Shown piece by piece: positions 12,743 through 61,990 of a DNA stretch of 64,000 bases (positions are counted from its first letter, which is position 1; every line of letters starts with the position of its first letter). Source of the stretch: Haliotis cracherodii. Lineage: Eukaryota. Under the pieces are notes generated by a model. The model was not told the origin of the DNA. It did no database searches and saw nothing but the letters and a program-made list of their open reading frames with translations. Location of the stretch: the NCBI RefSeq assembly GCF_022045235.1, contig NW_027266265.1, forward strand, positions 15,376,001 to 15,440,000, in the 5' to 3' direction. The translations under genes and the position numbers were made by a program.

Positions 12743-13260
12743 ATGTGAAGACTCCCCAACACTGCAGCCTTCTGCTTTACACAGATTGTCAGAAGGGCTG
12801 TATTCCTGGTAGCAAACTCGGTACTCTCCAAATGTCAGTCAACATATTGGGAGGTACCAAACAATGGGGAGTCTGACTGCATATTTGCCATGTATTTCCT
12901 GAATCTTGTCAATCAAATTAGTGTCAAAACGGACACAAAATTCAATTACATAAAAGATTTCAGTGGATTTATCAAAAAGGACAAGATCAGGTTTGTTGGC
13001 CTGGATACGTCTGAGGGTGTATACGGGCCTGTTCCAAAGAAATTTTGTATTTCTCATTTTCCATGTACATATTCTGGGTCGTACCATGGATGGACCTCTG
13101 TGTCAAAACCACAAGCATGGCGAAGACGGTAATAAAATGATCTGTCCAATCCATCTTGTCGCTTAAGATACTGTGTCTCTGCTAACGCCGGGCATCCACT
13201 CACAATGTGTTGGACAGTATCATTAAATTCATTACATAATCTACATTTCATATTTACGTT
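12743..13260 (-). mobile_element. R4/Dong-like RLE non-LTR retrotransposon fragment
   Basis: [19 protein letters not shown] (CCHC) and [16 protein letters not shown] (PD-(D/E)xK endonuclease), frameshifted; closely similar to 17834-18523. Confidence 0.85.
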
Positions 13261-14640
13261 TTGTTTTCGTGGAACTCACGGGTACGCATGAATGAGAGTG
13301 TATTTAATAATTCCTCTTGTGATTTGGTGACAGAGAAGTGGGGGAGGGAACACTGTAAGGATAAAGTGGATCATAGTAAGGTATCAGGACGACATACGAT
13401 TGCTGCTGGGTCGAATTTTGAATCACATCTGAGTAAATGTAGCGACAGTTAGTAGATAGATAAAATAAATGTTAGAACCGGCCACGTTTAAATATGTGCA
13501 ACGATAATATATAAATTATTTGAAAATGAAAAAAAAAAAAAAAATTTAAATAAAAATGTTTTCATAAACTGGCACTTGGTATAAACTGCACCTTAACAGG
13601 ATGTACGTAGTAAACAAATACTTGTATTAAGAACTCTCAACAATGCTGGGCTTATTCAATGGCATTGTGGTTGGAGTTGATAGATCACTGAGAGGACCTT
13701 GCAGCAAAATTTCACAAATTACGTCATAGGGTATTGTGACGTTTTTAAAAGTATGTGGTACTGAATCATAAACGAACATGTTGGCCCAAATATATTTATT
13801 TCAAAATAATCCAAGATCCCTCAAACTATCAAATGTACTGTCCCTTACGTTGACGTTGTTGTTGCGTTTGGTGTTACGTCTTGGAAGTCACTCCATGTAA
13901 TCAGTCAGCTAAAGTCATAGCACCATTTCTAAGCCAAATCATTTTCGAAAAACATATGGGAATTTATTCTCACCACCTAAGAACGGGTCCCTCTCTCTGC
14001 AAGTACCTTCTCCACTGGATCAAAAGCATCATGAAACCCCTTAATTGCGTCCTTTAGGGCAAAAGATATCTTGTAAAAATGGGCCTCTGTCTGAAAAAAA
14101 CCCAGTAGAATGATTGTAGAGGACACTCATTAAAATACATTCACTTCGATACGAAACCTATCTTCAGGAAGACCTGATGGAACCTCAACAGAACGTCGAG
14201 TCAGCTGACATTCTCAATCAGCCAATCAACGTCGAGGCTTCTAAATTCACGTTACGGGTGAGCGAAGGATTCAGACCAGCAGTTTTGTTTTTGTATGTTG
14301 AGTGCAGTGCTTGTTTTATTAAACTGTTAAACCAGATTGTTACCTTTGAAAACAGTTCCACAATGATCCTGTCTAGTGCTCTCCTGTACGGGTCCGAGGG
14401 GGTCAGTTTGTTGTTGGGGTACACTTCATCCAGGTAGTCAGCGCAGATCAAAGACTCATAGTTCACCTTGTCGTCTTGTTCTAAGATGGGAACATTGCCT
14501 GTGGGGTTCCTGTCCAGGAAACAAGATGGCTTCTGCCTCAAGTCAATATTCACTGTCTCGTATCTGGTGGAAAAAATAACTTTTCAAACAACATTCATCA
14601 TAAATACAATATCATTTTTTTTCTAGAAAATAGAATACAG

Positions 14641-14820
14641 CATGTTCTAATGCGCTGGAACTAATTTCGAAAGTTCAGCATAGGGGCAGAACCTCTGATG
14701 TATACCCTCTCGATGTTATATAATGCTCTAGATTTAGTCTCGCTCTCTCAGCTTAGGGGCAGATGTGTATACTGACACACTGGTTTCTTAATATTCCAGA
14801 ACGAGTCTCGGTCTCTCTCA
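14641..14820 (-). repeat. GSTO exon-2-junction repeat array of pseudogene D (about 3 degenerate units)
   Basis: catgttctaatgcgctggaactaa...cagcataggggcagaacctctgatgtatac and two further units. Confidence 0.85.
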
Positions 14821-17119
14821 CTTCACTTCACCTGTAAGTGTGGCGCCGGGGTAGCTTCGTGGTTAAAGCATTGTTTCATCAAGAAAGAGACCCGGGTTCG
14901 ATTCCCTACATGGTTACAATGTGTGAAGCCAATTTCCGATATCCATCGCCATGCTAGAATACAGATAACCGAATACCATCCGCAGGAAATTGCACAATCT
15001 ATGTTCTTTGCACGAAGTTTACTCTCACCAGTTTACTGTTGATTCCACTGATTTCTTTCACCCCATCATTAGCACTTCAATAAATCAACCAGGTAAGTAC
15101 ATAACATTCATCTTTTGGTTTAGGATTCTAATACATATGTGCACGTACTTAGCTGCATTGCAATGCAAAGGCGTCAAAACAGTCATTTGCAGTAGGCCTG
15201 TTATCAATAGGAACTTGGGGACGACGTGGAGCAGCATCAATCTCCACTTCTTTGGCATGAAGCCAATAAACTCGAACAATCAGTTCCATGAAAGCCTCGA
15301 ATTTATCAAGTATTTTTGACGAATAACGAATTCTTAAAAATGTAAAGAATACAACCCTTTGCCTATAGACTGTGTTGAGCTTAGTATGACATGATCAAAT
15401 AACTAAACAATCAGTGAGCACTTATCAGTGATAAGTTTCCCAAGCCATTCTGTTCCACATCCCAGGGGACCTAGCAGATGTCTTCCTCAGTTAACATACT
15501 GGCCTTGTATATGGTATAAAAAATTGTACACGAAGCAAACGCTTCAATGCACCAAACTATGACTATAGTGTTTGTATGAGCCCCTGTTTCGCTAGCTTTG
15601 CAACTGAGTGATGTACCATAAGATACGTAAAATCCTCCAACCAACAGGTTGATTGCAGTATGATGAGTCTTTCTCTTTCTAATTTGTAGACCCATCATCA
15701 AAGGTGTCTGAAGACATTTGATTTCTTTCATTGACACTGGGCCTAGTCTTGTCCTTACTTTGTGCAGTTCCAATGGTTCCCGAAGGAAGGGCAACACACC
15801 TTCCAAATTGATGTTACCTGGCCTTCGTCCATTCTTGTGATCATGGATGTGTCGGCATCTTTGGAATGCCGGAAACTCAGTAAATACATTCATGCTGCAT
15901 TGGTTATGGCTCAATAGTTGGAAAGACTGTGAACGTCACTTACTTTGTCATTGCATCCATTTGTCATTGCTGTACACGACAGTATTGAATCCAATGTTGT
16001 CTCTGTAATTCTGGTGAGGCTGTTAAATGGAGCAATATTTTCTCTGATACCCTTACCTTCATACAAAGGATGGAGTGATTCTCTATAAATATTAGCTTTG
16101 GCGGTAATGCGGCCGTCAAATCGGCTGTTCCAAGTCAGAGGCGATAATTGTCACCCTAACTGACCAATCAGAATCGAATAACTTCAACTTGTATTTATGT
16201 AGTGTTAATATTTTCTAGTTTCATCTACTCATATGGACAAGAAAGGTTCCCTTGTATTCCTTGTAGAGAGCCTACTGAAGAGGATTGGGAAGTCGGGATC
16301 CGAGGCAAAGTTGACTGAATGTTATCGTAGACATGCTGTCAGGCACTGGTTTTTCTGGTCCACCCTTGGACATTTGCAAGCCGCCATGACATAGCGTTTG
16401 AAGGCAATCAATCTCCAATTCACTTTAGTGTCGCAATACCTAGCAGCATCTTTACCCATAACGTAACCCTTCCTCATATGTCTGGTAACAAATGAATTAG
16501 ATGACCAATTCTTGTTTTTGATGACCAAGCTTTATTATTGGATAGAATTGAAGCACTACAAGAGTATGATTTCATATCTGATCACAAAATCCAACGATCT
16601 TACACTGGCAAATGAATGTTGCCTTCTGTAAAACCCCACATATGTACATTAGCTCGGAGCACCAGGATCGTATGCCTTTGAGATCAAATTGCAGATGTGA
16701 CTGACATCTTGGCTCCAAGATCCTCGGTGATATCATGAAAAGAATTATTGCCAAATGGACATGTAAATGTAATTAAAATAACAATCTTCAAACGTAGATC
16801 TGTCTGTTACAATGTCCTTGACCTAAGATGAATTTTCTTCTAGACCAAAAATCTCCACAAATATCAGCTTGGATCAAAGACTTCCGCAAGTCCAAAGTTT
16901 TGAAATAAACAAATTCTTGTTTTCATTCACAAAAACACATCCGATAACTTTCATTCCAAAGGTTAGCTCATTTCTAAAGTGACAATGTTTGTAGCTCATA
17001 TCTTTGTAACACATTATCCTGAACATCTTTTAGCTAAACACTCTATAAAGGCATGTGAATATGCAGGTACAATAGCTATGTTGTCATCTGCACAGTTCTG
17101 TGAAGATATATATGCAGAT

Positions 17120-18871
17120 TCAAAGGCCAACGTCATAGTCTGGTTTTCCAGCTTTGACTGTTTCTATGAAATGAATGTGTGCCGGTGTGTCCCAGCGACA
17201 TTTCTGTACAGCTGGTACCTTGCCCATATTTTCAATCCACTTGGTAAGCTTGGGGTACCGATCAGCTGTCACCCTCGCTTCCTTCACTAACTGAGCCATA
17301 GCGTCAAACCTTTCAACGTGAGGCCAAATCGTGAAGTCAATCATCTGAACAGAGCTGCCTGAAATGTAAATAGATGAGATTGAGAAGGAATAACGTTTGA
17401 AATATTTGCAGCAGATATTTAAGCGCAACCGTGAACGGCGGGTGCGGATCCCGGGGGAAAGTCAAGGGGTTAGGACTACACCTATTCAAAATTATATATG
17501 GACCCAAATGACCACCAATATCAAACTACCGTTTTATTGAAATACCTCAGTGTGTATATCTTTGTCTGATACCAAAATTTAATAAATTCAGAACATCCAG
17601 CATAATAAGTGAACATTGTATGTTTTTGTAATACCTAGGGCCATATTCTTATTCTTATTCTTATTCTTCTTCTTATTATTATTTACAGATTAAAATAAAA
17701 AAATGCAGCAAAGAGGGCTTGGGTCATCCTGGTACGGTCAGGCTGGTTAGGCTCATCATCAGCTCATGGCCCTTTCCCCCTCTACACGCAGCCCAGATAG
17801 CGAATGGGACTTCTCCCAGGAAGTGCTGCCCAGTCAAACCCACCCAGAACATTTCCGAGAACGCGAAGACTCCCCAACACTGCAGCCTTCTGCATTACCC
17901 AGATAGTCAGAAGGTTTGTATCCTCTCCCAATGCCAGTCAACAGATTGGGAGGTACCAAACCTAAGGCACCGAGAACAATTTGAAGTCGGACAACCTGGT
18001 ACTTGAGATGCAAGCGTGACTTTTCGAAAGCGAGGCCTGCATATTTGCCATATTTTTCCTGAATCTTGCCAATCAAATTAGTGCCAACAGGGACAGAAAA
18101 TTCAATGATGTAAATGACTTCATTGGATTTATCAAACAGGACAAGATCAGGTTTGTTGGCCTGGATAAGTGTGAGGCTGAAAACGGGCCTATTCCAAAGA
18201 ATCTTGTATTTATTATTTTCCATGAGGCCCTCTAAATAGTCTGTGTCGTACCATGGATGGACCTCTGTGTCAAAACTACAATCATTGCAGTGATACAATG
18301 ATCGAGCCACCCCATCATGTCGCTTAAGATACTGTGTTTGTGCCAAAGCTGGGCATCCACTGACAATGTGTTGGGCAGTCTCATTAAATTCATTGCATAA
18401 TCTACATTTTATATATACATTTTGATGCAAAATCACACATTGACGGTTTCGAGTTGGAAGTGACTGGTCCTGAGCAGCAAACATAAAGCCTTCTGTTTCA
18501 CTCTTCAGGCCAGCCGACTTCATTCAAGCGAAGGGCTCTGCAGGGTTGCTGACACTGCACATTAACTCGATGTAGTGGTCGTTCAGAAAACAGAGTCTAG
18601 GCCGATTTGATATGGCACTTCGGTTGGTTAACACTCATTTCTGTGCCGTCCAGCAGTACAAAACCATTAAAAAAATTGAGATTATGGCCCACATCTTTGG
18701 CTCGTTTTAGAAAACTGTGGAATGCCTTGTTTTCATCATGAGTCTTGACATACTTCACAAGAGGACCATCAGACAAATAAATGTGTGCAAAAGTGCACAA
18801 AACAATTCTATCACAAAGAGCCTCCACATTAATAATTCCACGCACTCCCATCATATTATTGTTGTTGTTTC

Positions 18872-18906
<35 letters not shown>

Positions 18907-21900
18907 ATATTTAGTGTAACGCTTAATAAGGTTACGGAAAGGGACGAAGTGCTGACGGCCTTAACATATGATACGAGCAGCCATGATATCACCTGACTTC
19001 AGTCTGCGGACACTTACGAGTGGTCACGATATCATTTGGCACTTTCGTCTTGTTCGGTAATCAATAATTCAACGTGATAAAAAAAAATAGCCGAAATGGC
19101 GCTAACTGAAATCGACACCACACGTCAATTCTCGAGTTTACGATTACGCATGTATGGCAAGGTGTTCAATCATTCCTTGAGTGATTTTGTGACATAAAAG
19201 TGTAGGAGGCAACCCTGAAAGTGAATGAGTGAGTGAGTTGGGTTTCACGCCGCTTTTAACAATAAAACAGTTATATCGCGGCGTGTCAGCTTAATATGGA
19301 AGGAAAGCCCGAAGTGATTCAGGTATCAGACGTTTACCACTTCGGTGAAACCCACGAGCACGGGTATGGTGCTGACAAACCTAGAAACATAATCGGGACG
19401 AACCGGGATTCGAACCCACAATCAGAGGTTTCTGGTGTGCCCAAGGGACGCAACTCTGCACAGCGAATCGCGGCGCCTGAGACGACTGGGCCACCCGTGC
19501 CCCCGAACCCTGAATGGATGACGTGGGCCATGGTAAGGAATCAGGAAGACCCAGGTATTGCTAATGGGTCGAACTTGAATCATATCATAGCATTTGTAGC
19601 TTTTAGTAATAGACAGATAGTGTTTATTTGAAATATGAATGCTTCCATAAACCGTAGCTGGCAGTATGTAGAGAATTGTATGCAGATCCGATGACCCTAG
19701 CAACTCTGCTGCTAGGCTAACGTCAGAGGGCGTTGTTTCGCCGGTGTATCTTGCAGCAAAATTTCACAAATTACATGAAGTTTTCTTAAAGTTTGAGTTA
19801 ATTAAGGAATGAACATTAACAACGTACATAAATTATTTTTTTTCAACATAATCCCAGGCATCTCAGAATATCAAATTTACTGTCCCTTACGATGAAGTTG
19901 TTGCGTTTCGTATTATTTCATCCGTTAGTTAAAGTCATAATCACCATGTTTACGCCAAATGTTTTTCTTTAAAAATAAGTAAAAATTCTTACCACCAAAG
20001 AACGGAGTCCCCCTCTCTGCGAGAGCCTTTTCCACTGGACCAAGAGCATCATGGAATCCCTTTATAGCATCCTTTGGAACATCTTTGCCATAAGCTATCT
20101 TGTAAAAAAGGGTCACTGCCTGAAATATGTAACATTTGTATGAGAGTAGGGGAGACGTGTCTTCTGACAGTAGTATAACACAGTCGTCTAAAGGGTCGCA
20201 AATGGTTGCGTCCCTTAGTCGTGCATGATCCGCTGGTAGCTGGGTCAAATCCCTACTGCATACTTATTCATGATCCTTGGTTTGTCAACGCCATACTTGT
20301 CTTCGTCGGTTTCTCCAAATTGGTAAATGTCAAGGGTCGGCATCAATTTAGGATCTAATCTCAACCTTGATATACCTGACATACTACCGGAAAACCCGCT
20401 CACTCACTGCTCTCTTTTAAGGAAAATACTATTATGTGGCCATGTGAATCCTATTTCGAACGTTAAAGAGTTTAAATAATGCATATTTCGTTTTATAGTC
20501 ACCACCACTAGTACTTATCGTTGCTTTGTACAAGAACACCACACTCGGGTCAACTAGGCTTATTCCGCTCCTTTACATTATCCCTCGAGCAGCAACAATT
20601 TTATTTAAATCTCCAAGAAGAAATTACGGTACTTACTTAGGAGGTCCAGTCAGGTGAATTGTTTAATTAGTTTTATTAATTTCGGTACCAATGAACGAAG
20701 CATTCAAACAAGCATATTTGATATCTGTATCTCGAAACGAACTAAAACGACCAGTTCCGAATGTTGATAATTAAGGTGGCACCATTATATTGTGGGTGAT
20801 ACACCCTGTCGTTTCCCTGCCAGGGCATCTACACCAAAAGAGAATGATAATATTGAAGGATCATTTGGGTTCAGTGTCAGTGTCTTTGTTGTTGTACAAT
20901 TCGAAAGATAACCGACTCGTTTTCAAAAGTGAAACTTCTGCTTTGCTCAAGTTCTCATGTTACATATATCTAGATTCGGACGTCATATTTCGTTCAGGGT
21001 TCACTTGATATTGCAGGAAATTACTGTAAACCGTCCAATGTGGAATCCTGCCAAGTACTGACTTAAGGTCAATCAAACTGAATAGATCACAGTGAAAACA
21101 CAACGTGGTATTTGACGAAGTTTGACGAATCAATTTAGTAACGCAACACAGATTGGCAACCCACGACACGGGTACGGTGATGACAAACGTAGAAACATAA
21201 CCAAGCGAATCCAGGATTCAAACCACAGATGATCGGGTTCTAAGGGACGGAACTCTGAGCAAGATTAGGCGACTGGGTCACGTGTGTTCACCATGATATA
21301 CATTGTACTTGAAATTCGTATCGTATCAAATAAAACACCATCACTTAAAACATGTAACGTACCTTTTTCAAAATTAGATTCAGAACTGACTGAAAATTCA
21401 CTATGGTTATCACTTGCATGTGCAGTGTACTACACGTACTTGTGTTATGTATTTAATAAACCAGATTAAACTCCTATCCTGTACATATGCTTGTCAACCA
21501 TACTCCGACATCACTTGCTTGATAACGGCGTTAGAACCTACATAGAAACGTCGCTCCTAATTGTAACAAAGAAGTTGTTCATCCATATATCTTATCCTTA
21601 CTTAGTACTTCTAAATGCCTCTCAAAGAAATAAACCAGATTGTTACCTTTGAAAACAGTTCCACAATGAGCCTGTCCCGTGCTCTCCTGTAAGGGTCCGA
21701 GGGAGTCAGTTTGTTGTTTGGGTACACTTCATCTATGTAGTCAGAGCAGACCAGAGACTCATAGAGCACCTTGTCGTCTTTTTCTAAGATAGGAACAGTC
21801 CCGTTAGGGTTCTTGTCCCAGAACCAAGATGGCTTCTGTTTCAAGTCAATATTCACTGTTTCGTGTCTGGTGGAAAAACAAATGACGTTTTTTGAACAAT

Positions 21901-24900
21901 ATTCATCATAAATGCAATGTCAAAATGTTTTAGAAAATGGAATTATACAACATGTTCCAATGCGATAGAACTAGCTATATACTAATGACCTATAATATCA
22001 GCATCGGGGCAGAACGGAGGGTGGATTCTTACCGTTCTTTTGAGCCAAATCTAGTCTCGTTCCCTCGGTATTGGGGCCGAACGGCTAGTGTACGCTCACT
22101 CTGTGCTCTTTGGAACAAAACTTAGCCACACTCTCTCAGCATACGGGTAGAACCTCGAGTGATTTCTCAATCTATGTTCTTATGCGCTAGAACGGATCTC
22201 GCTTTCTCATACATATGACAGGGACAGAACCTCTCGTGTACACTTTCTCTATGTTTCCTGTGCGTTAGAACAAATCCCGTCTCTAAGCATAAGATCAGAT
22301 CTTCTGGTGTATACTCACTATATTTTCTTACGCGCTAGAACTTATCTTGCTCTCTCAGCATGGGGACAGAAACTCCAGTGCACACTCACTGTCACCGTGT
22401 CGTAAAACCCAGGTCGTCACGGTCCTGTGATGTTAGTACCTTCCTACTCATCCCTGTCCAGCGGTCGGACGTATGGCAAGCCGTTTTCAAAATATTTCGG
22501 AATTACTTATATCATCACTTGTTTTTAAGACATCGGTATTCTATTAAAGATGTCCATTATGTTTTTTTAAAATATCAATAAATAATCAAAGATGAATTAA
22601 TTTCTAATGTCCAAAATACAATTACTGATGTCTTAAAATGTGACTGTGATATAAAAAAAATCATTTCGTGATATGTCTAAATTTATTTAAGATACAGTTA
22701 AAACAATTGCCATCCAACTGAACATAATCATATTCGAAATATATTCAAGATGTCTTGAAAAAGGTTATACACATTCACAACTGCATGGCACGTTGAAAGT
22801 GTTTTGTAACGTTGATGTTCACACAGTAGCGGGACTGTGTCGTACTATTGTAGATATTTCCCATGTATTTATGGTCATTTTTGCCACCTTACATTGTACA
22901 TATCTGGCTGTATATGTTTAATGGCACAACTGGGTACATAAAGTTTGGTGCTTTATTTTTATACCTATATCTCTAATACTGGTTTAGTAGTAAGTTTCCT
23001 ATTCATGTTTTCCATACTTTAGAAAACACAAGTCTGTTCATTCACGAGGTTAGATGGTGTATGCTCACTCTTTGTTCCTATGCGGTAGAACTAATCTTCT
23101 TCTCTAAGCTGAGGGATAGAACCTCAAGTGTATACTCACTCTATGTTCTTATGTCCAAGAACTAGTCTCGTTCTCTCAGCATAGGGGCAGAACCTCAAGT
23201 ATATACTCACTCTATGTTCTTATGTTCAAGAACTAGTCTCGTTCTCTCAGCATAGGGGCAGAACCTCAAGTGTATACTCACTCTATGTATTTAGTGTTCA
23301 AGAACTAGTCTCGCTCTCTCAGCATAGGGGCAGAACCTCAAGTGTATATACTCACTCTATGTTCTTAGTGGTCAAGAACTAGTCTCGTTCTCTCAGCATA
23401 GGGGCAGAACCTCAAGTGTATACTCACTCTATGTTTTTATGTTCAAGAACTAGCCTCGTTCTCTCAGCATAGGGGCAGAACCTCATGCTGTAGATCCTTA
23501 GTTTGCCCGGTGTGAGCGCCGGGAAGGCAGATGCTGAAACCAAAGTAACTTGATTTATTGATAACCATGGAAATGACATCTAGTCGTGAATCATACAAAT
23601 CAAAACGTCACCGGGGTACGATGAAACACTAGGGCAGCAAGGTGACAGCATAGAGTTGGTATTTTCGAAGGAGGCCATCCTCATGCGTGTCTATTCTCAG
23701 CGGACATCAGATTCCAACTTCCTCTTTGACCTTGACGCCTATATGGATATCTCCCAGGATCTCAAGGATAGTGAGTGAGTGAGTGAGTGAGTTTGGTTTT
23801 ACGCCGCTTTTAGCAATATTCCAGCAATATCACGGCTTCACACATTGTACCCATGTCGGGAATCGAACCCGGATCTTCGGCGTGACGAGCGAACGCTTTA
23901 ACCACTAGGCTACCCGACCGCCCCCTCAAGGATAGAGTGTGCCTACTTGAATATAGAGAGTTTGCAATTTTTTTCATACTTCCGGGGCGGTCGGGTAGCC
24001 TAGTGGTTCGCTCGTCACACCGAAGACCCGGGTTCGATTCCCGACATGGGTACAATGTGTGAAACCCATTTCTGGTGTCCCCTGCCGTGATATTGCTGGA
24101 ATATTGCTAAAAGCGGCGTAAAACCATACTCACTCACTCACTAATACTTCCGACCCTTTATTGCCAGAAAAACAAAAATATAATTGGAGAGTGCAATTAT
24201 ATCTTATTTTTTGTATCACTGACAAATGGTTTGAAAAACATATACCGTAAGTTAACCAATAAATAATAAAAGTCCTTCGTATGACAAAAAGACGATATGT
24301 GTTATTTATAGAATTCAGTGATCAGTACCCACACATATATACAGAGTAATATAGTTCAAGCCCGAACGTTGTCTTGATACCAAACACAAATATTACTCAA
24401 TGAATGAATGTCATGTTTTATGGATTTAAGGCGGCTTGAAGTGTACATTTACGTCAAGGTTTAAATGTCGATAGAACACTGAGAGAGGCATTCAACTCAC
24501 GTCACACCCAACTGGAAACAAATGGACGCAACCCTGCACGACAAACCGACCCAAGCCCATTCAAATAATTGTGAAACTATCATCCTGCAACTGATACCAG
24601 ATAACGTGAATAATGAGATGGTGAGCCGTGTCTCTAAACCCTAATTGTCCAAATAGTCCAACGATAATAACTGAGATAGTTGTTAAACTGTCTCGTGAGT
24701 CCAGGCGTGGGTGTGGCGGTTGGTTAGCCTCGTGGCTAAATCGTGCGTATGATGTCCCGGGTTTGATTCTTTGTAATAGAGCTCATTCTTGGTGTGCCCC
24801 ACTCACTCACTCACTCGCACAATCCTTCCCTTCCCCATCCTCTCCCTCCCGAGCTCACTCACTCTAAAACAGAAAAGCTCCTTCCAGTAGTCTCACTCGA

Positions 24901-25435
24901 CTGCTTACTCAATCTTTCACCTCATTAACCATTCAACCATTCAACCATTAAATAACTCAACTATACCGCGCACTCAGGGCAGCGTGTTAGTCTAGCGGCT
25001 ATAGCGTTCGCTCGATTCCCCACATGGGTACAATGTGTGAGGCCCATTTCTGGACTATTTTACTGAAAGAGGCGTAAAACGGCGGGGCGTCTTTAAGGTT
25101 TTGTCGTGGACATAATGTTATATCACTGTATCGATTCCATACCAAATCATGCTTAATCATGTCATGCTAATATCACAAAACCTTAACGGGACACCACTTG
25201 GATTGAAAGACAGAGTAGATCCCAGGCACCCAACGGATGGCGTGGCTCGTTGCTCACTCTTCCACCCACTGGCCTGTCTGTTCCAAATACGATTACTGAC
25301 GAAGTGATAATTACTGAACGTGACGTGAAACAAATGCAACAGTTAACAGATGACAGTGTCACGACGGTCACGTGATCTAAGACGTGACAGACTTAACATG
25401 GGGTACTCACCCGTTGTGTAGGACTTCTCAGTCAT
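17120..25435 (-). CDS. GSTO: Glutathione S-transferase omega A, intact, 238 aa; exons 25411-25435, 23428-23533, 21647-21866, 19993-20119, 17120-17358
   Basis: All introns GT-AG with consistent phases (25+106+220+127+239=717 nt). Protein [38 protein letters not shown]...[24 protein letters not shown]...[19 protein letters not shown]...KPDYDVGL carries the omega-class MRFCPYA catalytic motif, VP cis-proline, YES motif and a C-terminal D.GL. Confidence 0.95.
17685..18852 (-). mobile_element. 5'-truncated R4/Dong-like RLE non-LTR retrotransposon in GSTO A intron 4
   Basis: GVRGIINVE..., [34 protein letters not shown]....[27 protein letters not shown]; flanked by simple repeats on both sides. Confidence 0.9.
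18857..18906. repeat. (TTG)n microsatellite
   Basis: Directly visible. Confidence 0.95.
19222..19505 (-). mobile_element. SINE family 4 (tRNA-like head with long A-to-B box spacing, family-1-like tail)
   Basis: Minus strand ggtggcccagtcg...gggttcgaatccc, core gattatgtttctaggtttgtcagcaccatacccgtgctc, tail aaaagcggcgtgaaacccaactcactc. Partial copies at ~2490-2650, 21160-21285, 31965-32085 and 40225-40330. Confidence 0.7.
21952..22390 (-). repeat. GSTO A intron 2, distal degenerate exon-2-junction repeat array (about 6 units)
   Basis: Recurrent tatg.tcttatgcgctagaac...ctctcagcat.ggg.cagaac..gtgta.actcact at ~70-bp spacing. Confidence 0.85.
23057..23485 (-). repeat. GSTO A proximal exon-2-junction array: 5 intronic units plus the exon's own copy, period 71-74 bp
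   Basis: Anchor acta(g/a) recurs at 23090, 23161, 23232, 23304, 23378 and 23449. Unit (minus) TGAGGTTCTGCCCCTATGCTGAGAGAACGAGACTAGTTCTTGAACATAAGAACATAGA|GTGAGTATACACT. Confidence 0.95.
23772..23924 (-). mobile_element. SINE family 1 copy with TSD ctcaaggatag
   Basis: TSD at 23761-23771 and 23925-23935. Confidence 0.9.
23985..24143 (+). mobile_element. SINE family 1 copy with TSD atacttccg
   Basis: TSD at 23976-23984 and 24144-24152. Confidence 0.9.
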
Positions 25436-26004: not shown

Positions 26005-26785
26005 TTGTCATGTCACATGTATGGGTCAGAAATATGGGCATTCCATAAAATGAGAGAAGTTGAGAAAGTTAATTTATATGCGTGTAAATGGTTATTGAAT
26101 GTTAATAAATGTACATCAAGTAGCGCTGTAATGGGTGAATGTGGCAGATTCCCTTTACATATCAATGCAATGATGAGAGCTTTTAGATATTGGCTACGTT
26201 TAATGTGTATGCCGGGTACCCGCTTACCTAAAAAGTGTTATGAAATGATGTATTTGTACGATAGTCAAGGAAGGAAGAATTGGGTTACTAATATTAGAAC
26301 AACGTTATTTTCACTCGGATTCGGTCATGTTTGGTTATCACAATCACCCGGTAACGTACAGGTATTTACTTCGATGTTATTTCAACGTTTGAAAGATAAT
26401 TTTCAACAAATATAGCATAGAAGTTTATGTTATAGTTCCAAAATGTCCTTCTATTCTCATTTTAAATTAACGTTGAAGTGTGAAGAATATTTGTATTGTG
26501 TAACCGTGAGTAAATTCCGGTCATGTATGTCAAGGTTTAGATGCAGTGCTGGAAAAAGAAACTGGTAGAAAACTTGATATCCCTTGTGAAGAAAGATTTT
26601 GCAAACTATGTCAAGTTGGCCTAATAGAAGACAAGTTTCATTACCTGCTAGTGTGCCTTGCATATAATCACCTACGTCATCTCTATATTCCTTCAAAATA
26701 TTGTCTACTCCCAAATGTCCATAAGTTTAATATTCTTTTATCTACAACCAACACAAAGCTGATTATTAATATCGCTAAATATATG
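26005..26785 (+). mobile_element. Non-LTR retrotransposon 3' fragment (post-RT region and CCHC)
   Basis: YGSEIWAF...VMGECGRFPL...YWLRL...NWVTNIR..L.SLGFGHVW and ETGR....EERFCKLC...IEDKFHYLLVC; interrupted by a stop and a frameshift. Confidence 0.85.
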
Positions 26786-28532
26786 TGAATGAATTCAACT
26801 CAGACTCTTTTGAATGTACTCAGAAATCACAATGCATGTTACGATGACTAAGTACAATTAATCGTTGCTGTACGCCACTGGAATATTCTTTGTCCACTGA
26901 ATGTTCACTGAATGTCCACTGAAGGTCTCTCGGGGCCGCTCCAGCAGTCATCGCTATCACTTCATTGTTTAAACAACCTTGATATGTAAAGTCCATTTTG
27001 CATTGGACATACGTTGACTATATAACGATGTTAAATACTCCTTACCGGACGATTACTACCAGTAACCAGTACCATATAAGTGTACATATGTCACAGTAAG
27101 AAATCATTGTAAAAATAGGCATTTCATGAAATCCCTAAGCATTTCAGTAATCTCATGACATCTATGAATATCTTACATACTTAAATGAAATTACTGAAAT
27201 GTTGCACGAAATACCTAGTTTCACAATCGTACTGTAACATATACAACGTAACGTTACACTGTGGACGTGGTTCGTTATTCCGCACATTTGCTAATCGGGA
27301 CGATTTCAGTGGCGCCACTACCGTCCGGATTACCGGGGTTTCCTTGTATGTATATGTTTCCCTTATGGTATAATAGCAGAGCGGAAAAACATTAACTTCC
27401 GCTATGAATTGCCACCTCAATCCCGACTATACTATTCAAAGTGAAAGTGTGCAAACTTTATTGCCATGGAATAAAAAATCCATGTCGAATAAAAAGATAT
27501 TAATGTTTTATAGGTGAGTCGTTTGATTTCTTTCAATGACACAGGGTTTAGTCTTGAAGGAAGAGCAGCCCACCTTTCAAATGAATGGTATCATTTGACC
27601 TTCGTTTTTGTTGTGACCAGGCTGCGGTGGCGTTTTTGGGAAGCCGGATATACACTAAATAATACACCAGTAATGAACAATATGCAAAGTTTGGTGCTTT
27701 ATATGCTCAAGCATATTTTTATAAAATCATTGTAATTTAAAACTTAACATAAAACAGGCATTGGAAGTGTGATCGCCGGCAACTTCGTAAGACAATGTGA
27801 AGTGGGCACCCCTAAAGAAAATTAAGCAAGCATCCCAAGGTTTTGTCCTACATTGCACGTCACCGCTCATTGTGACGTAGCAATTATGACGTCACATTCG
27901 GTAATAGCAAAGCTATATTTTCAGCTGTATGTGGACCCCAAACTTTGTAATAACCCCCTTAGCCGATTTCTATCTTTTTATCTGCCCAAAATGTATTGCC
28001 ACACATAGTTGGAATATTGCAGTAATCATTGATAAGCGCCACATTTTCAGCTCCACCTGGACCCTAAACTTTGAAATACCCCCCTCAGACGATTTTTAGC
28101 TTATTGTCTGCCCATATGTTTTAAATGTATTGCCACACATAGTTGGAATATTGCAGTAACAACAGCTTAGCATTTTGTAACTTACTGACAGTGACGCGAC
28201 ATGGGCACAATGTGTGAAGCCCATTTCTGGTGTCCCCCGCCGTGATATTGCTGGAATATTGCTAAAAGCGGCGTAAAACCATTCTCACTCGCTCACTCAC
28301 TGACAATGACGAAGAAAGAAGTAATTGTCTATAAAACAATCACCAATTCACTCTAGTATGGCAATACCTAGCAGTATCGTTACCCACAACGTAATCCTTC
28401 CTCATTGTTTCTGGTAACAAATGAATAAGATAAACCAATACCAAGGGTTTTTTTATGATCAAGGTTTATTATTTGATAATATTGAAACAGTACAAGTGCA
28501 TAATTTCATATTTTGATTACGCAAACAACAAG

Positions 28533-29549: not shown

Positions 29550-32500
29550 TCAAAGTCCGAAGTCATAGTCTGGTTTTCCAGCTTTAGATGTTTCTATGAA
29601 ATGGACGTGAGCCGGTGTGTCCCAGCGACATTTCTGCACGGCAGGCACCTTGCCCATGTTTTCAATCCACTTCGTAAACTTGGGGTACCGATCAGCTGTC
29701 ACCCTTGCTTCCTTCACTAACTGGGCCATAGCGTCAAACCTTTCAGTGAGAGGCCAGATCATGAGGTCAACCATCTGAACTGAGCTGCCTGAAATGTAAA
29801 CATATAGATGATACTGAGAGGGACAATTCGGACTGTTTGCAACAGATGTTTACGCATATTCATGCACCACGGGTGCATCTTCGGGGGGATTGTGGGTGTG
29901 GGAGGGAAAGCTGTCATGGAGTTTGATGTTGACATAGATATTGCTACTAGATCGACTTTTGAGTTATATCTGAGCAAATGAAGCGATAGGTAGCATTGGA
30001 GAGATAGTGTTCGAATTTGGACTGGCGACGTTTTGAATGTGTGCAGCGTAAATGAATAGATAAAGTTGAAACTGATACAAATCCTTTAAATAACAAACAT
30101 TAACCCTCCACGAGCTGGAGCTTGCGATAAAATGCGCCGTGGCTTGGAGTATTTAGTAAATATCTAATGACACCGCTGGGCTTTTTCACTGATATTGAAT
30201 CACATATCAACAAATGAAGCAAAAGGTTGAGGATCGATATCGTGTTCGGAACGCCGATGTTTGTATTTGGCGGCGTCAATAACTAAATAAAGCTGAAACT
30301 GACCCGTCATGTGGCTGGAATATTGCCGAGTGCGGCGTTAAACAACAAATAAACAACATAAACTGGCGGTTACTAAATAATGTGCCGTAGCAGGCTGTAA
30401 ATAGATATTGAATACTCAACATCACCGGGCTTATTCAATGATCTCAAGTGTAGAGATGATAGATCACTGAGAGAATCTTATGTACACCAGGTAACCCCCT
30501 CTACTTTGTTGCTAGGCTACCGTCACAGGGCCAAAAATTAATTTCTTTCAAAATTATCTCATGCCATTTAGAATATCAAATGTACTGTCCTCTACGTCGA
30601 AGTTGATGTTGCATTTCGAATTAACGTGGTGGATGACAGTCCATGTGATCCTTTTATAGCTAAAGTCATATCACCATTTCTAAGCCAAATAGTATTTCTT
30701 GAACAATATGGGAAAAAATATTCTTACCACCAAAGAACGGGGTCCCTCTCTCTGCAAGAGCCTTCTCCACTGGATCAAGAGCATCATGGAATTCCTTGAT
30801 AGCATCCTTTGGGACATCTTTGCCATAAGTTGTCTTGAAAAAAGGGCCCATTACCTGAAATTATTAACAGTAGTATGCTAGTTGGTGACACAGGATGCCG
30901 AGTCGTCAAAGATTCGTAAATGGCTGCCAATCTTAGTCGTTCTTGGATACGCTGATAGCTGATTCAAATCCCTAATGCATACTTTTCTATGATCCCTGAT
31001 TTGCAACGCCCATGGCCTTGCTCGTCAATTTCAACAAATTGGTACTTATCTGGGACTGGCATCACTATAGGATTTCCTCCCATATTAATCTGGCACACCG
31101 TGAAAAAATTGAAACACTGTTCAAAGCTCCAGGAAAACCCAACTCACTCACTCACTACTTTCTTTTAAGGAAAATACTATTATGTGACAATACGAATATT
31201 ATTTTGGTAAGTGAAAGAGTTTAGATAATATACATTTATTTTATAGTCACCAATATATATCATTGCTTAGTACAAGAAGACCACACTCGGATCAACTCGG
31301 CTTATTCCGCAACCTAAATTATACCTCGGGCAGCAACAATATAATGAACATACTTTACTTCGGTATACCAGTGAGGTCTTGGGGCACCTCAACAGAAGGT
31401 CAAGTCAGGTGAACTTTTTAATCAACCAATCAACGTCGATGCTTCTAAATTCTCGATACGAATGAACAAAGCATTCAAGACAACATGTTTGATTTTTTTT
31501 GTTTCTCGAAATCGAACTAAACGACCACTTCCGAATGTTGATCATTCACATTCATTGTTGATCATTAAGTATTTTATACATCCTGTTTCCCTGCCGTGGT
31601 ATCTGTATATCGATGGATTATCTGTGTTCTGTGTTCCGTGTACAATTCGAAATTACCAAATCGAGGAAGTAATTAAATGTAACCGAATGGTTTTGGAAAA
31701 CGAAACTTCTGACTGGCTCAAGAGCTCACGCATTATTCATTTAGACTGGTCCGTCAAAGTTCGCTCAGGGTTCGCCGACAGCAATGGAGTGATGATATTG
31801 CATGAAATTACCGTAAACCTCCCAATATGGATTCCTGCCAAGTACTGACCCAAGGCCAATTAGACTGAGTCGAGCAGAGTGAAAACACCATACAGTATTT
31901 GAGGAGTTTATAAAATATCATCACGGACCTGATAACGCAGCATAGATTTGGAACCACCAACAAGGTTACGGTGATGACCAACGAAGATTCATAGCCATGG
32001 GAACCTAGGATTCGAACCAAAGATCGTCGGATTCTAAGGCACGGAGCTCTACACAGCTAAGGTACCTTAGACGACAAGGTCATGCGTGTTCTCGGTGATA
32101 TACTTAAAAGACGTGCCACATGAACTTAAAAACTATAACTTAAAGCATTTAATGTTTCTTATTTCAATGTGATTCCGAACTGACTTGTAGTCTTTAGGGG
32201 ATTCTTTCATTAATTCGAATGGTAGTACTTCAGCGTACAGTGCACTGCTTGTGTTTTTCATTAGTAGACGACAGTGTTACCTTTGAAAACAGTTCCACAA
32301 GGATCCTGTCCCGTGCTCTCCTGTACGGGTCCGAGGGGGTCAGTTTGTTGTTTGGGTACACTTCATCCAGGTAGTCAGCGCAGACTAGAGACTCATAGAG
32401 CACCTTGTCGTCTTGTTCTAAGATGGGAACAGCGCCGTTGGGATTCCTGTCCAGGAACCAAGATGGCTTCTGCTTCAAATCAATATTCACGGTCTCGTGT

Positions 32501-35500
32501 CTGTTGAAAAAACAAATATATTTTTTTAACAATATTCATCATAAATACAATGTCAAAATGTTTTTTTTAGAAAATAGAATACAACATGTTCTTATGCGCT
32601 GGAACTAGTCTCGCTCCGAACAGCTTGTGTATACTCAACGTTCTTTTGAGCTAAAGCTGAAGTCGTTCCCACCGCACCGGGGAAGACCGTCTGGTGTAAA
32701 CTCACTCTATGTTCTTTGGAGCTAACATTAGTCGGTTGTCTCTCATTCTGCCTACAGTTTATAATACACAATATACGTTTTATTAGGGTATTAGTTTCAC
32801 ATGACTGAATGCTTTCTGAATACCTGTCTTCCATTTCTCATCATAGATTAATCCTTTCAACACAAAGACCACTAAATAAAGAAATGTGAATACATGTCAA
32901 CCTGTCTTGCCTCATAACATGCAATGAGAACTGACTTCTAGTGCAAAACATTTCACCAAACCATAGTCAGAACGGCCAAGGGCATTCTATCTCTAAAAAT
33001 AGAAAAATCTAATCATATCAATACGATAATAGAAATGTTATCAATACATATTTGAATTTTGACTTGGCTTATTTATGCTAAGATTAAATGAATGGATATA
33101 AGTGTACTTGTGATGTGATATTATGTATATGATAATGATGTTATGTTGTCATAAATGCAATATGATGAATTGTAGATGTTGACATAAATGAATATCAATG
33201 TATGATTGCTTAAAAAAATGATGTTATATCAGAAACGATAAAGATATGAATACTTAAGGATTTAAGTTGTATTTGTTGACGTTCATCAGCTGATGAGGAT
33301 AGTTCCTCGCGTGAGCAAATTCCATGATGAACGTCAACAAATACAACTTCAATACTTATATTGACAAATACATATATCATAACAAAACTATCCATTAAAC
33401 ATCAAACTTTCATTATTTGAAGCGAACTATATCAACGCGGAGAGTCGTGACGTCATCCGTCCGAAACATTCCATGTGGAGCGGCTACGGCAATGTCATCC
33501 ACTTGAAAAGAGCACCCAGAAAAAGTTAGCGTTGGAAAGAAATCCAGACCCGGCTGATGCTGAAAATGGATTGATATTAACGTTCTGTGAACTTTGAGTG
33601 TGTTTGAGTCATACTACGGCTGCTGATGACGGGAATTACCGCTTGAGGCGATGCGGTTGGATTTCCCGAAGCAATACACGACAGTGTGAAGCTCAGTGAT
33701 TTCTTTTGGTAACAGACACCCTTTTGTGTACTTACTTAATGTTCTTATGCACTGGAACTCATCTCGCTCTCTCAGCATAGGAGCAGAACATGTAGTGTAT
33801 TCTTACTTAATGTTCTAATGCGCTGGAACTCATCTCGCTCTCTGAGCATAGGGGCAGAACATACAGTGTATACTTACTTTATGTTCTTAAGCGCTGGAAC
33901 TCGCTCTCTCAGAGTAGGAACAGAACCTCTAGTGTATACTAGTATTTACTCCATGTTCTTATGCGCTAGAACTAATCTTGCTCACACAACATAGGTACAG
34001 AAAATCTAGTTTACACTCACTCTATGTTCTTATGCGCTAGAACTTATCCTGCTCACTCAACATAGGTACAGAAAATCTAGTTTATACTCACTCTATGTTC
34101 TTATGCGCTAGAACTAGTCTTGCTCTCTCAGCAAATGGGCAGAACCTCATGCTGTAGATCCTCATTTTGCCCGGGGTGAGCGCCGGGAAGGCAGACGCTA
34201 AAACCAAAACAAATTGATCGATTTATCGCCATGGAAATGTCATCTAGTCGTGAATCATACCAATCAAAAAGTCATCGGGTACGATGAAACACAAGGGCAG
34301 CCAGGTGACAGGATAGAGTTGGTCTTTTCAGAAGAAGGCCACCCTCATGCTTGTCTATGCTCAGCGGACATCAGACCCCAGTTTGCCCTTTGACCTTGAC
34401 GCATATACAGATATCCGTTCAAGAATCTCAATGATGCATGTAGACATTAGTCACACATGATATTTAGTCACACATGATATTTAGTCAAAACAATGACATT
34501 TTTTACTTTTTATTGCATGGTTAATGTACCCGCTGACCCTACATGTCAGGAATGGGTTTAAGTTATTTTGGAAACGCCGAACCTGATAAATACATTCATG
34601 AATAAAACATAAGTAATTATTTCCCTGCCTCACGCAGACAAGTGGTATGTGTTTCATTACCCGACATTTTCCGCTCAAATATTTCTCACAGCGTCACTAG
34701 TACTACACAGATTGTTTCCTTTGTTCACATGTAAACGCGAAACATTTTTGACATTCCTGTCACGTTTCACAAAACAATGCTGAACAGAAAATATAGAATT
34801 TGAAATTATTCTCATACTAATTACCCTTTATTGCAACAAGAGCTGAAAAATAATGGGAGAGTGAAATGTTATTTTCCTTGTTATAGTGATGAGAAAATGT
34901 TTTGAGAAAAATATACCGTAAATGAACCTTATATGTACCTTACGATGACACAAAGACGACCCACAATACACAGAACATGCACAAAGTCTCATAAAAACTT
35001 TGTGATTCACAGAATTTAGTGATCTGTACCCCAGCATAAAGTAATATAGTTCACGTTTGAGTTTACGCCGTATTTACCAATCTTTCAACAATATCGCGGC
35101 GGGGGGACAACAGAAATGGGCTTCACACATTATACCCATGTTTGGAATCGAACACGGACTTTTGTTTGACAAGTAAACGCTTTAACCCCACCGCTTCAGT
35201 TTCTGTTTGAACGTTTCTTTGACACAACACAATAATATTACTCAATACATGAATTTTATATGGTTTTAAGCCCGGTTAAACGAGTACGTCACGATCTGTG
35301 AGCTAAATGTGGATGGAATGCCGAGATTTGGACTCAACTCACGTCAAGCAAATCCTAGAAACAAAGGGACGCAACCCTGCACAACATTCGGATCCAAGAT
35401 CCCTCACTTAAATAATCATCTGGCCCATCTATGAGCGTGTATATATTTCACTTGAGAAATTGTTTAGTTAATGTTGTTTATTTTTGCTGATACGTCTTGT

Positions 35501-35782
35501 TGCATTACGGCTGTACCCCTGAATTAAGACGTGCATACGAATATCATGTAACGCTAATGCGTCGTACACAGGACACGCTTGATCGTGTTTGCACCAGCGA
35601 CATGCTACAACATGGCGACGTGAACAAGTATTCATCGAATTAGACGTGATAAACAAGGACATATATGTGTGTCCTACACCAACAGTATACAAATGGTGGC
35701 AGTGTCATGACGGTCACGTGAACTAAGACGTGACATATTGAAAAAAAGGGTACTCACTCGTTGTGTAGGCCTTCTCAGTCAT
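29550..35782 (-). CDS. GSTO: Glutathione S-transferase omega B, intact, 238 aa; exons 35758-35782, 34092-34197, 32281-32500, 30728-30854, 29550-29788
   Basis: Exon sizes and phases identical to A, all GT-AG. Protein [43 protein letters not shown]...[18 protein letters not shown]...[12 protein letters not shown]...[14 protein letters not shown]...KPDYDFGL. Confidence 0.95.
32585..32750 (-). repeat. GSTO B intron 2, distal exon-2-junction repeats (2-3 degenerate units)
   Basis: catgttcttatgcgctggaactagtctcgctc...gtgtatactca...gtgtaaactcactctatgttct. Confidence 0.8.
33725..34150 (-). repeat. GSTO B proximal exon-2-junction array: 5 intronic units plus the exon copy
   Basis: Recurrent atgttcttatgcgct(a/g)gaact...cagcatagg..cagaa...gtgtatact(t/c)ac at ~65-77-bp spacing. 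Confidence 0.9.
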
Positions 35783-42800: not shown

Positions 42801-43539
42801 ACAATACTAACAATGCATAAGAATACAGATATGAATTTGGTCAAATGCAATAGTGCCGAGTACGTTATCATAGACACGAAATGACGACACATGCTTGAAA
42901 AGACCTTTTTGTTCTGGGTGGAGAATCTCTGTGTAATAACTGGTCATGGTGGAGGTGTCATGTTGCTCCGCGGGTAACAACTGGCGGTGGTTACTCTCAA
43001 TGTAACAAATTGGCAATGGAAGCTCTCCTGGGAACAACTGTCCGGCACTGCTTATTGTTCGGCTTCACAATAGGCTTTGATAATTCTCCGGGTAACCACT
43101 GACGCTGGTAATTCTCCGGGTAACGGCGGGTAACAATAGTCGATGGTAATTCTCCGGGTAACATCTGGCAGGGTTGACAATACCCAGGCCCACACCAAAG
43201 CTACACATTGCATATTCGTTTACATTAAAGTCCATAGTCATAGTCTGGCTCTCCAGCTTTGGTTGTTTCAATGAATTGGACGTGAGCCGGAGTGTCCCAG
43301 CGACATTTCTGTACAGCTGGTACCTTGCCCATGTTTTCAATCCACTTGATAAGCTTGGGGTACCGATCAGCTGTCACCCTCGCTTCCTTCACTAACTGGG
43401 CCACAGCTTCAAATCTTACAACGTAAGGACAGATCATGAAGTCAACCATCTGAACAGAGCTGCCTGAAATTACAAGAGATGATTCCTAGAAGGTTACAAA
43501 GTCAGAGACAGAATATGAATATGATCTCTGGATTGGGAG

Positions 43540-52199: not shown

Positions 52200-52815
52200 A
52201 ATAGGGAAAAGGGAAAGTATGACTGCATGTACGTCATGAATATTGGGTATTTCATCGTTATTATAAGGAATGTATGATTTCTTGAACATTGGGTATTTCA
52301 TCATTATTATAGGGAAAGGGGAAAGTATGACTGCATGTACATTTGGGTATTTCATCATTATTATAGGGAAAGGAGGAAGTATGACTGCTTGTACATTTGG
52401 GTATTTCATCATTATTATAGGGAAAGGGGAAAGTATGACTGCATGTACATTTGGGTATTTCATCATTATTATAAGGAAAGGGGAAAGTATGACTGCACGT
52501 ACATTTGGGTATTTCATCATTATTATAGGGAAAGGGGAAAGTATGACTGCATGTACATTTGGGTATTTCATCATTATTATAGGGAAAGGGGAAAGTATGA
52601 CTGCACGTACATTTGGGTATTTCATCATTATTATAGGGAAAGGGGAAAGTATGACTGCGCGTACATTTGGGTATTTCATCATTATCATAGGGAAAGGAGG
52701 AAGTATGACTGCACGTACATTTGGGTATTTCCTCATTATTATAGGGAAAGGGGAAAGTATGACTGCAAGTACATTTGGGTATTTCATCATTATTATAGGT
52801 AAAGGGGAAAGTATA
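52200..52815. repeat. 54-bp minisatellite, about 10 units
   Basis: Unit gaaagtatgactgcatgtacatttgggtatttcatcattattatagggaaaggg. Confidence 0.95.
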
Positions 52816-54658: not shown

Positions 54659-54965
54659 TAAACAAGTGAAAACTGTGTTGAATAACATCTATTTTGTATT
54701 ACCACGTGTATATTACGCGACATTTACCTTACGTTGTATATAATGTAAACAAGTGAAAACTGTGTTGAATAACATCTATTTTGTATTACCACGTGTATAT
54801 TACGCGACATTTACCTTACGTTGTATATAATGTAAACAAGTGAAAACTGTGTTGAATAACCCCTAATTTATATTACCACGTGTATATTGCGTGACATCTT
54901 CCTTACGTTGTATATACATGTAAACAAGTGAAAAATGTGTTGAATAACCCCTATTTTGAATTATT
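54659..54965. repeat. 87-bp tandem repeat, about 3.5 units
   Basis: aacaagtgaaaa(c/a)tgtgttgaataac recurs at 54661, 54748, 54835 and 54923. Confidence 0.9.
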
Positions 54966-61409: not shown

Positions 61410-61990
61410 AAATATCTAGTTGCGGTTAGTGAGTTGCAGTTAGTTATAGGTCCAATTGATGTTAGTGATACACACAGTTGATGTAAATGATATATCCAGT
61501 TGCTGTAAGCGATATATATGCAGTTGCTGTGATATATCCAGTTGATGTTTGTGATACACACAGTTGATGTAAATGATATATCCAGTTGCTGTAAGCGATA
61601 TATATGCAGTTGCTGTGATATATCCAGTTGATGTTAGTGATACACAGTTGATGTAAATGATATATCCAGTTGCTGTAAGCGATATAACCAGTTGCTGTAA
61701 GGGATATATATCCATTTTCTGTAAGTGATATATCTAGTTGCTGTAAGTGATATATCCAGTTGCTGAAATCGATATATCCAGTTGACGTAAGCAATATATC
61801 CAGTTGCTTCAAGTGATATATATATCCAGATGCTGTAAGTGATATATCCAGTTGCTTAAATCGATATATCCAGTTGATGTGATATATCCAGTTACTGTAA
61901 GTTCTGCATCAAATTGTTGTTTATATTATGTGCAGCTGCAATTCATACAGTATCCAGCTGTAGTTAGCGATATATGCAATTGTGTTTATG
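61410..61990. repeat. Degenerate ~21-bp minisatellite (gatatatccagttgctgtaag) with higher-order units
   Basis: Directly visible. Confidence 0.85.

What the first reader, a model, noticed from the sequence alone, without database searches (positions are those of the whole stretch)
33725..34197. The arrays record exon history: B repeats keep CPY while the B exon reads CPF
Seen: B exon 2 encodes TGC CCA TTT GCT (CPFA), but its intronic copies read TGC CCC TAT GCT (e.g. cataggggcagaac at ~33847), the CPYA state of paralogue A. Conversely, A's exon-proximal units carry A's own CTTGA.CA variant (LEH), whereas A's distal units (~23080, 22180, 22330) carry CTAGCGCAT-like sequence (LAH) as in B's exon. 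Inference: new units are added at the exon end at different times, so the intron is a time-ordered archive of ancestral active-site alleles, and Y->F in B is derived. Established: human GSTO1 has CPFA and GSTO2 has CPYS, so this residue varies between functionally distinct omega enzymes.
Basis: partly seen in the sequence, partly recalled or inferred. Interest (0 to 1): 0.7.

Follow-up and report, generated by a model that had tools for sequence, protein, structure and literature searches.

The report
Exon-edge repeats in abalone glutathione transferases
In a cluster of duplicated abalone detox genes, decayed 71-base copies of an exon end sit in the next intron and still spell tyrosine where one gene now has phenylalanine, so they likely preserve that gene's older active-site codon; this is a small case of a known repeat type, with two or three age layers and not a time-ordered record.

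Summary
The observation mostly holds. Two intact omega-class GST genes (A, B) and two broken copies carry 24 intronic copies of the last 58 bases of exon 2 plus 13 intron bases. All 5 units next to B's exon keep a Tyr codon while the exon has Phe, but only 1 of 5 reads exactly CPYA. Y-to-F in B is likely derived: the array predates the A/B duplication, with orthologous units across genes, and 0 of 16 old units show B's T. Protein outgroups alone leave the direction open. The 'time-ordered archive' is not supported. B's units were copied from each other, not from B's exon. 'Proximal' and 'distal' blocks were made by unrelated repeat insertions. The distance gradient depends on the alignment. 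Only A has a young, exon-like burst of 4 units. One active-site state is archived, and F/Y changes at least 13 times among 52 omega GSTs. This is a new member of a known class (lancelet 'mirages', human F7 intron 7 VNTR); this scan noted the same class in shark MHC. Side lead: a related species' gene model appears to splice at one decayed unit.

The parts
29550..35782 (-). Gene B, intact omega-class GST, 238 aa, five coding exons (35758-35782, 34092-34197, 32281-32500, 30728-30854, 29550-29788), motif CPFA
   Evidence: Joined exons translate to P0003 exactly, with GT-AG ends; RNA-type contigs splice exon 2 to exon 3 at the first donor
34092..34197 (-). B exon 2; its last 58 bases plus the first 13 intron bases (34079-34149) are the repeat unit; CCA TTT at 34133-34138
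33931..34078 (-). Units B1, B2: old units copied from each other, both TAT; B1 pairs with A's distal unit Ad1
   Evidence: 7 shared changes (null mean 0.9, p 0.0002); Ad1-B1 5 shared (p 0.0004); tree 97/93
33723..33930 (-). Units B3, B4, B5: old units, TAC/TAT/TAT; B4 is the only exact CPYA copy; B4 and B5 are sisters
   Evidence: 5 shared changes, p 0.0002
33245..33714 (.). High-copy dispersed repeat that splits B's array
   Evidence: 511 first-look candidates, 40 scored, hits on many contigs
32576..32753 (-). Units Bd1-Bd3, orthologous to Ad4-Ad6; Bd1 keeps a donor and encodes the 8 residues that start protein P0012
17120..25435 (-). Gene A, intact omega-class GST, 238 aa (exons 25411-25435, 23428-23533, 21647-21866, 19993-20119, 17120-17358), motif CPYA, LEH
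   Evidence: Joined exons translate to P0002 exactly
23128..23414 (-). Units A1-A4: young burst, 4-7% from exon A, carry A's derived CTT GA-; keep older synonymous AGA (4 of 4) and AAG (3 of 4)
23057..23127 (-). Unit A5, old (24-25% from exon A)
22463..22790 (.). A different high-copy dispersed repeat that splits A's array
   Evidence: 384 first-look candidates, 40 scored
21940..22377 (-). Units Ad1-Ad6, old, collinear with B's units
14632..14822 (-). Three units of broken copy D (no exon 2 found; exon 3 at 14344-14563; exon 4 frameshifted); D3 is orthologous to Ad6 and Bd3 and reads TGC CCC TAT GCT
8112..8226 (-). Two units of remnant copy E, cut by a dispersed repeat; last-exon remnant at 4856-5007

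Best explanation
These are decayed tandem copies of the exon 2/intron 2 boundary of an abalone omega-class GST, likely founded once in an ancestral gene that read CPY...LAH, inherited by the gene duplicates and then left to decay, with B's exon probably changing Tyr to Phe later. Steps: (1, inferred) slippage or unequal crossover duplicated a 71-bp boundary segment; selection kept the upstream copy as exon and the downstream copies became intron. (2, shown by shared changes and collinearity) an array of about 6 or more units existed before A, B and D split. (3, shown) units also duplicated from each other (B1/B2, B4/B5), and unrelated dispersed repeats split the A and B arrays at different points. 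(4, inferred) B's exon changed CCC TAT to CCA TTT; A's changed CTA GCG to CTT GAA. (5, shown by sequence, timing inferred) A later gained 4 new units from its own exon. (6, seen in two RNA-type runs) B splices at the first donor; reading through it meets TGA at once, so the spare donors would give only truncated products. The record is two or three age layers, not a ladder.
For: Tyr codon in 5 of 5 B-proximal units; middle base A in 14 of 16 old units that cover it and T in 0 of 16; Pro third base C in 14 of 16 and A in 0. Majority of 20 old units translates [18 protein letters not shown]. Cross-gene unit pairs Ad4-Bd1, Ad5-Bd2, Ad6-D3-Bd3 and Ad1-B1 share 7, 5, 3-4 and 5 changes (p 0.0002-0.011) and group in the tree. 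AU tests reject A-only and B-only clades (p 0.003, 0.011). Orthologous units differ by 0.16-0.28, like other A-B non-coding blocks (most 0.15-0.26), so intron 2 was not imported late. Intron 1 just upstream of exon 2 differs by only 0.145. 11 of 14 cluster proteins from six Haliotis species are CPY, and all 3 CPF are B-type. GT donors kept in 11 of 16 old units, as neutral decay at about 0.18 per site predicts (about 11; my arithmetic). dN/dS A vs B is 0.21.
Against: The best protein tree puts B with the CPF outgroups (support 69/74) and needs only one change, F to Y; without exon 2 the root stays open and one change still suffices. The unit tree roots B's exon next to the distant paralogue F (83/90), because both have CCA TT-. 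Quartet counts for A, B, D against F are 6/5/5, so the order of the splits is unresolved. Alignments are 71 bases and most branches are weak (2 of 24 starred). In the MAFFT alignment one E unit shows T at the site, at the edge of an inserted repeat; the local alignment drops it. A coarse polarity does exist: the three far units are more decayed than the near ones in both genes.
Confidence: 0.78

Rival explanations
1. One reading: units are born one after another at the exon end, so position in the intron gives the time order of ancestral exon alleles.
For: A's 4 nearest units carry A's derived state and the 7 further ones do not (rho 0.81, p 0.0013). With the global alignment, old A units (rho 0.82, p 0.018) and all B units (rho 0.76, p 0.017) show a gradient. 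B1-B5 against exon B give rho 0.9, p 0.04 in the local alignment. A DNA run of another organism has a contig at about 3-4 times single-copy depth carrying exon A's newest letters, which hints at fresh copying from the exon.
Against: The gradient falls to 0.5 (p 0.13) for old A units and 0.0 for all B units when non-homologous tails are left out; B1-B5 gave 0.4 (p 0.25). Within A1-A4 the nearest unit is the most different (rho -0.77) and characters conflict (A1+A2 share an insertion, A1+A3 a substitution, A2+exon another). B1/B2 and B4/B5 are unit-to-unit copies. No B unit carries CCA or TTT, so B has added nothing from its exon since that change. Old A and B units are one inherited array, not two tests.
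Confidence: 0.1
2. CPF in B is ancestral. Tyr arose in the A/D lineage, the array was founded there, and B received its intron 2 by conversion or unequal crossover.
For: CPF is the commonest state outside the cluster (25 of 41 with a readable motif) and in paralogue F. One-change protein trees. B and F share CCA TT-.
Against: B's exon is as close to the old-unit majority as A's or closer (0.09 vs 0.11). Sequence upstream of exon 2 is not more diverged (0.145) and the array is not younger than other introns. F is far off (52% identity to A over 540 aligned bases) and has different neighbouring codons. The residue changes often (13 changes), so reversal is ordinary.
Confidence: 0.1
3. The array is kept because its spare donors tune splicing or yield a short GST lacking the catalytic cysteine.
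For: The first 8 residues of P0012, a RefSeq isoform of the B-type gene in H. rufescens, match only unit Bd1 on the window's minus strand and join exon 3 in frame. All 4 young A units keep the full donor.
Against: Donor retention in old units matches neutral decay (11 of 16). Two RNA-type runs show only the first donor of B in 33715-34260. P0012 is a computed model whose RNA support I could not see. Bd1 lay outside the second read-laying run, and the joint table of the first was cut.
Confidence: 0.07

Closest known systems
Lancelet 'mirages' (Adh3; globins BflGb6, BflGb9), PMC3087553, passages read
   Same: Minisatellite-like tandem copies of an exon-intron boundary in an invertebrate; many units keep splice signals; normal splicing is unaffected; units 81-100% alike; the tree shows homogenisation inside and excluded edge units; exonisation of a unit is proposed there.
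   Different: Here the array is shared by several gene duplicates, is older (old units about 18% from their majority), covers the catalytic motif codons and is split by inserted repeats.
Human donor-spanning minisatellites: F7 intron 7 (37 bp), IFI6/6-16, CBS intron 13, LMNB2, PDGF intron 4; PMC1557585, passages read
   Same: First unit spans the exon end and repeats the donor; the most upstream donor is used; downstream ones are silent or minor.
   Different: F7's unit has only 4 exon bases and identical pseudo-donors; here 58 of 71 bases are coding, most units are decayed, and length polymorphism within the species was not shown.
Polar variability of minisatellites (MS205, MSY1), PMC2897807, passages read
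   Same: Turnover biased to one end of an array is well known and explains the young block next to exon A.
   Different: Here one end is pinned by a selected exon; polarity is coarse and not robust in B.
Omega-class GSTs (human GSTO1 CPFA, GSTO2 CPYS; insect pyrimidodiazepine synthase)
   Same: Best PDB hits at E 2e-58 to 3e-43; CP(F/Y) motif; Pfam GST_N and GST_C domains.
   Different: A and B are an abalone-specific duplication (one clade, support 100), not orthologues of GSTO1 and GSTO2; no activity is measured.

Membership tests
Exon-intron boundary minisatellite ('mirage') | Head-to-tail units whose first copy spans the exon-intron boundary | tested here: met
   71-bp period; unit = last 58 exon bases + 13 intron bases
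Exon-intron boundary minisatellite ('mirage') | Reiterated splice signal in downstream units | tested here: met
   GT kept in 4 of 4 young and 11 of 16 old units
Exon-intron boundary minisatellite ('mirage') | Normal splicing at the authentic, most upstream donor | tested here: met
Exon-intron boundary minisatellite ('mirage') | Copy-number instability | tested here: inconclusive
   Unit numbers differ between paralogues; run X6 of another organism has contigs of depth 362-397 on B5 against about 5-17 elsewhere; the raw-read run X19 laid 0 reads, so no within-species test
Time-ordered (leader-polarised) archive | Each new unit is copied from the exon | tested here: not met
   B1/B2 and B4/B5 share changes absent from the exon; exon B + B1-B5 clade rejected, p 0.042
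Time-ordered (leader-polarised) archive | Divergence rises steadily with distance from the exon | tested here: inconclusive
   Step between young and old A units is clear; within layers rho ranges from -0.77 to 0.9 by alignment and subset
Time-ordered (leader-polarised) archive | Several successive active-site alleles preserved | tested here: not met
   Only the CPY state; 0 of 16 old and 0 of 4 young units have TTT
Omega-class GST | GST N- and C-terminal domains with a CP(F/Y) motif | tested here: met
   Pfam, PDB hits
Omega-class GST | Thioltransferase and dehydroascorbate reductase activity (recalled as the class's activities) | not testable with these tools
   Needs enzyme assay

The most novel reading that the evidence does not exclude
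The boundary array is a renewable source of new exon ends: each abalone lineage re-copies its current exon 2 end or expands an old unit, so arrays across species would date exon substitutions, and one decayed unit (Bd1) has become a real alternative exon end that yields an omega GST without its catalytic cysteine, or a regulated dead-end transcript.
Probability: 0.15. Interest if true: 0.5.

Novelty: new member of a known kind. Interest (0 to 1): 0.24.

Why it matters
It is a tidy example of intron fossils fixing the direction of a coding change where the protein tree cannot: parsimony on proteins prefers CPF ancestral, while the units point to a reversal in B. That is useful for abalone GST evolution and as a method note. 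It reveals no new mechanism: boundary minisatellites, their spare donors and their edge effects are published, and the F/Y residue is labile across molluscs. It would matter more if the Bd1 isoform is real, as a caught case of exonisation from such a repeat.

Tried and rejected
Strict time order was tested with two alignments and not upheld. A dispersed-element origin of the unit was rejected: two genome searches hit only this locus, and paralogue F has no array in the 30 kb fetched around it. In-frame exon extension through the units was rejected: TGA follows the first donor in both genes. Late import of B's intron 2 found no support. Rooting the cluster with F was unresolved. The per-exon synonymous counts for exons 4 and 5 used boundaries off by one base and were discarded; one search has the corrected ones. 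The first read-laying run (21) was swamped by common repeats and its tables were cut. The raw-read run X19 laid nothing, which is no test. No listed holder was on record as RNA. A 22-base unit pattern had 0 matches in metagenome contigs. GENECONV was not available and repeat-to-exon conversion was not tested. A recalled paper on human omega GST dehydroascorbate reductase structure was not held, and two searches for a functional effect of residue 34 gave none, so that effect is unverified here. Searches for a report of this abalone array (listings only) showed none; most subscription journals are not covered. No supplements were read.

Full report
Setting. The window is G000:C2:15376001-15440000 of a 1.18-Gb animal genome. 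It holds a minus-strand tandem cluster of omega-class glutathione transferases. Genes A (17120-25435) and B (29550-35782) are intact: their five joined exons translate exactly to P0002 and P0003, records named Haliotis cracherodii. dN/dS between them is 0.21. D and E are broken copies and C is a lone last exon. A distant paralogue F lies 1.35 Mb away, reads CPFA and LEH, and has no array.

The repeat. The unit is the last 58 bases of exon 2, which include the CP(Y/F) codons, plus the donor and 11 more intron bases. nhmmer finds 24 intronic units: 5 + 6 in A, 5 + 3 in B, 3 in D and 2 in E (one hit at E 0.28 dropped). Two genome searches place the unit only here.

Observation. B's exon reads TGC CCA TTT GCT. 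All 5 neighbouring units have a Tyr codon, but only B4 (33794-33864) has the exact CPYA codons. A1-A4 carry A's CTT GA- state, and A's older units carry CTA -CG. So the sequence claims hold, apart from the implied uniform CPYA.

One inherited array. The majority of the 20 old units translates to CPY...ERAR...LAH. Units pair across genes in order: Ad1-B1 (5 shared changes), Ad4-Bd1 (7), Ad5-Bd2 (5), Ad6-D3 (4) and Ad6-Bd3 (3), against null means of 0.6-1.6. The unit tree shows the same pairs, though only 2 of 24 branches are starred, and AU tests reject an A-only clade (p 0.003) and a B-only clade (p 0.011). The gaps that make 'proximal' and 'distal' blocks hold two unrelated high-copy repeats inserted at different points. 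B's exon-proximal units are therefore old units, partners of A's distal ones.

Direction of the change. At the Tyr/Phe middle base, 14 of 16 old units that cover it have A and none has T; at the Pro third base 14 of 16 have C and none has A (4 old units do not cover the site). Since B inherited this array, the ancestor read CCC TAT. Against this, protein trees need only one change if B is basal (support 69/74; root open without exon 2), the unit tree roots B's exon beside F, and A/B/D quartets are 6/5/5. A late import of B's intron would rescue ancestral CPF, but orthologous units differ by 0.16-0.28, like most other non-coding blocks (0.15-0.26), and the intron 1 end just upstream differs by only 0.145. 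I put reversal in B at about 85%. CPF is shared by the H. rufescens B proteins and by a contig of a third organism label with no difference over 104 bases. Among cluster proteins 11 of 14 are CPY. LAH is also the commonest state outside the cluster (25 of 41, counted by hand).

Time order. With a global alignment, distance from the exon rises with rank in A (rho 0.89), old A units (0.82) and B (0.76). With non-homologous tails left out, the values are 0.81, 0.50 (p 0.13) and 0.0. B1-B5 alone give 0.4 or 0.9 against the exon and -0.3 against the majority. Within A1-A4 the nearest unit is the most different, and shared characters conflict, as in ordinary repeat shuffling. B1/B2 (7 shared changes) and B4/B5 (5) are copies of each other. 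What remains is a layered record: a most decayed far block, a middle block about as old as the A/B split, and a young block in A only. It archives one active-site state, plus LAH and two synonymous letters for A.

Splicing. GT survives in 11 of 16 old units, about what neutral decay gives. Reading past the first donor meets TGA at once in both genes. Contigs of two runs guessed to be RNA join B's exon 2 to exon 3 at the first donor. One lead points the other way: P0012, a RefSeq isoform in H. rufescens, starts with 8 residues that match only unit Bd1, in frame with exon 3. Its RNA support was not visible to me.

Other species. Run X6 (another organism label) has contigs at depth 362-397 on unit B5, reading CCC TAT, against about 5-17 for other contigs, and a depth-37 contig with exon A's newest letters. 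This hints at both internal and exon-seeded expansions, but contig depth is not a copy number.

Function of the residue. Human GSTO1 and GSTO2 do differ as stated (PMC10452860, passages). But F, Y and W occur in 25, 14 and 2 of 41 outside proteins with a readable motif (5 more had none), and the state changes at least 13 times on a 52-protein tree. I found no held paper testing the residue.

Comparison and verdict. The structure is a donor-spanning minisatellite like human F7 intron 7, IFI6, CBS, LMNB2 and PDGF (PMC1557585, passages) and the lancelet 'mirages', where edge units escape homogenisation (PMC3087553, passages). Polar turnover is known (PMC2897807, passages). Two earlier notes of this scan describe the class in shark MHC genes (unchecked, not used as support). 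No listing showed this abalone array. Real, correctly spotted, direction probably right, 'time-ordered archive' overstated. New member of a known kind; interest 0.24.

Noticed in passing
window 32706-32751 (minus), unit Bd1: Decayed unit with an intact donor and nearby upstream AG; its frame gives the 8 residues that begin RefSeq isoform P0012 of a related species, which lacks the catalytic motif. Possible exonisation.
   Followed up: partly
window 33734-33809, run X6: Contigs at roughly 30-40 times the depth of other contigs match unit B5 with CCC TAT, suggesting a large expansion of an old unit in another organism.
   Followed up: no
window 34056-34218, run X6 contig 5: A further exon 2 whose differences fit CPYS, like protein P0006, followed by units; in the window copy D has lost exon 2.
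   Followed up: partly
window 43227-43462 (minus): Lone last exon of a fifth GST copy (C), open frame, conserved Trp replaced by Cys; no exon 2 or 3 found upstream.
   Followed up: partly
window 12877-13263 and 18037-18424: Related retroelement-like fragments with a C-x2-C...H-x4-C motif (class recalled, not searched), one in A's last intron and one at the matching place in D.
   Followed up: no
window 26770-26900: Partial second copy of the sequence upstream of exon 1; P0010 has an N-terminal extension resembling this upstream region.
   Followed up: no
window 52267-52814, 54659-54963, 61451-61901, 2781-3174: Other tandem arrays with periods 54, 87, 22 and 9/27, unrelated to the GST unit.
   Followed up: no
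exon 2 of A and B: Each gene's amino-acid change comes as clustered substitutions (2 in 3 bases in B, 3 in 4 bases in A) relative to the old-unit majority.
   Followed up: no
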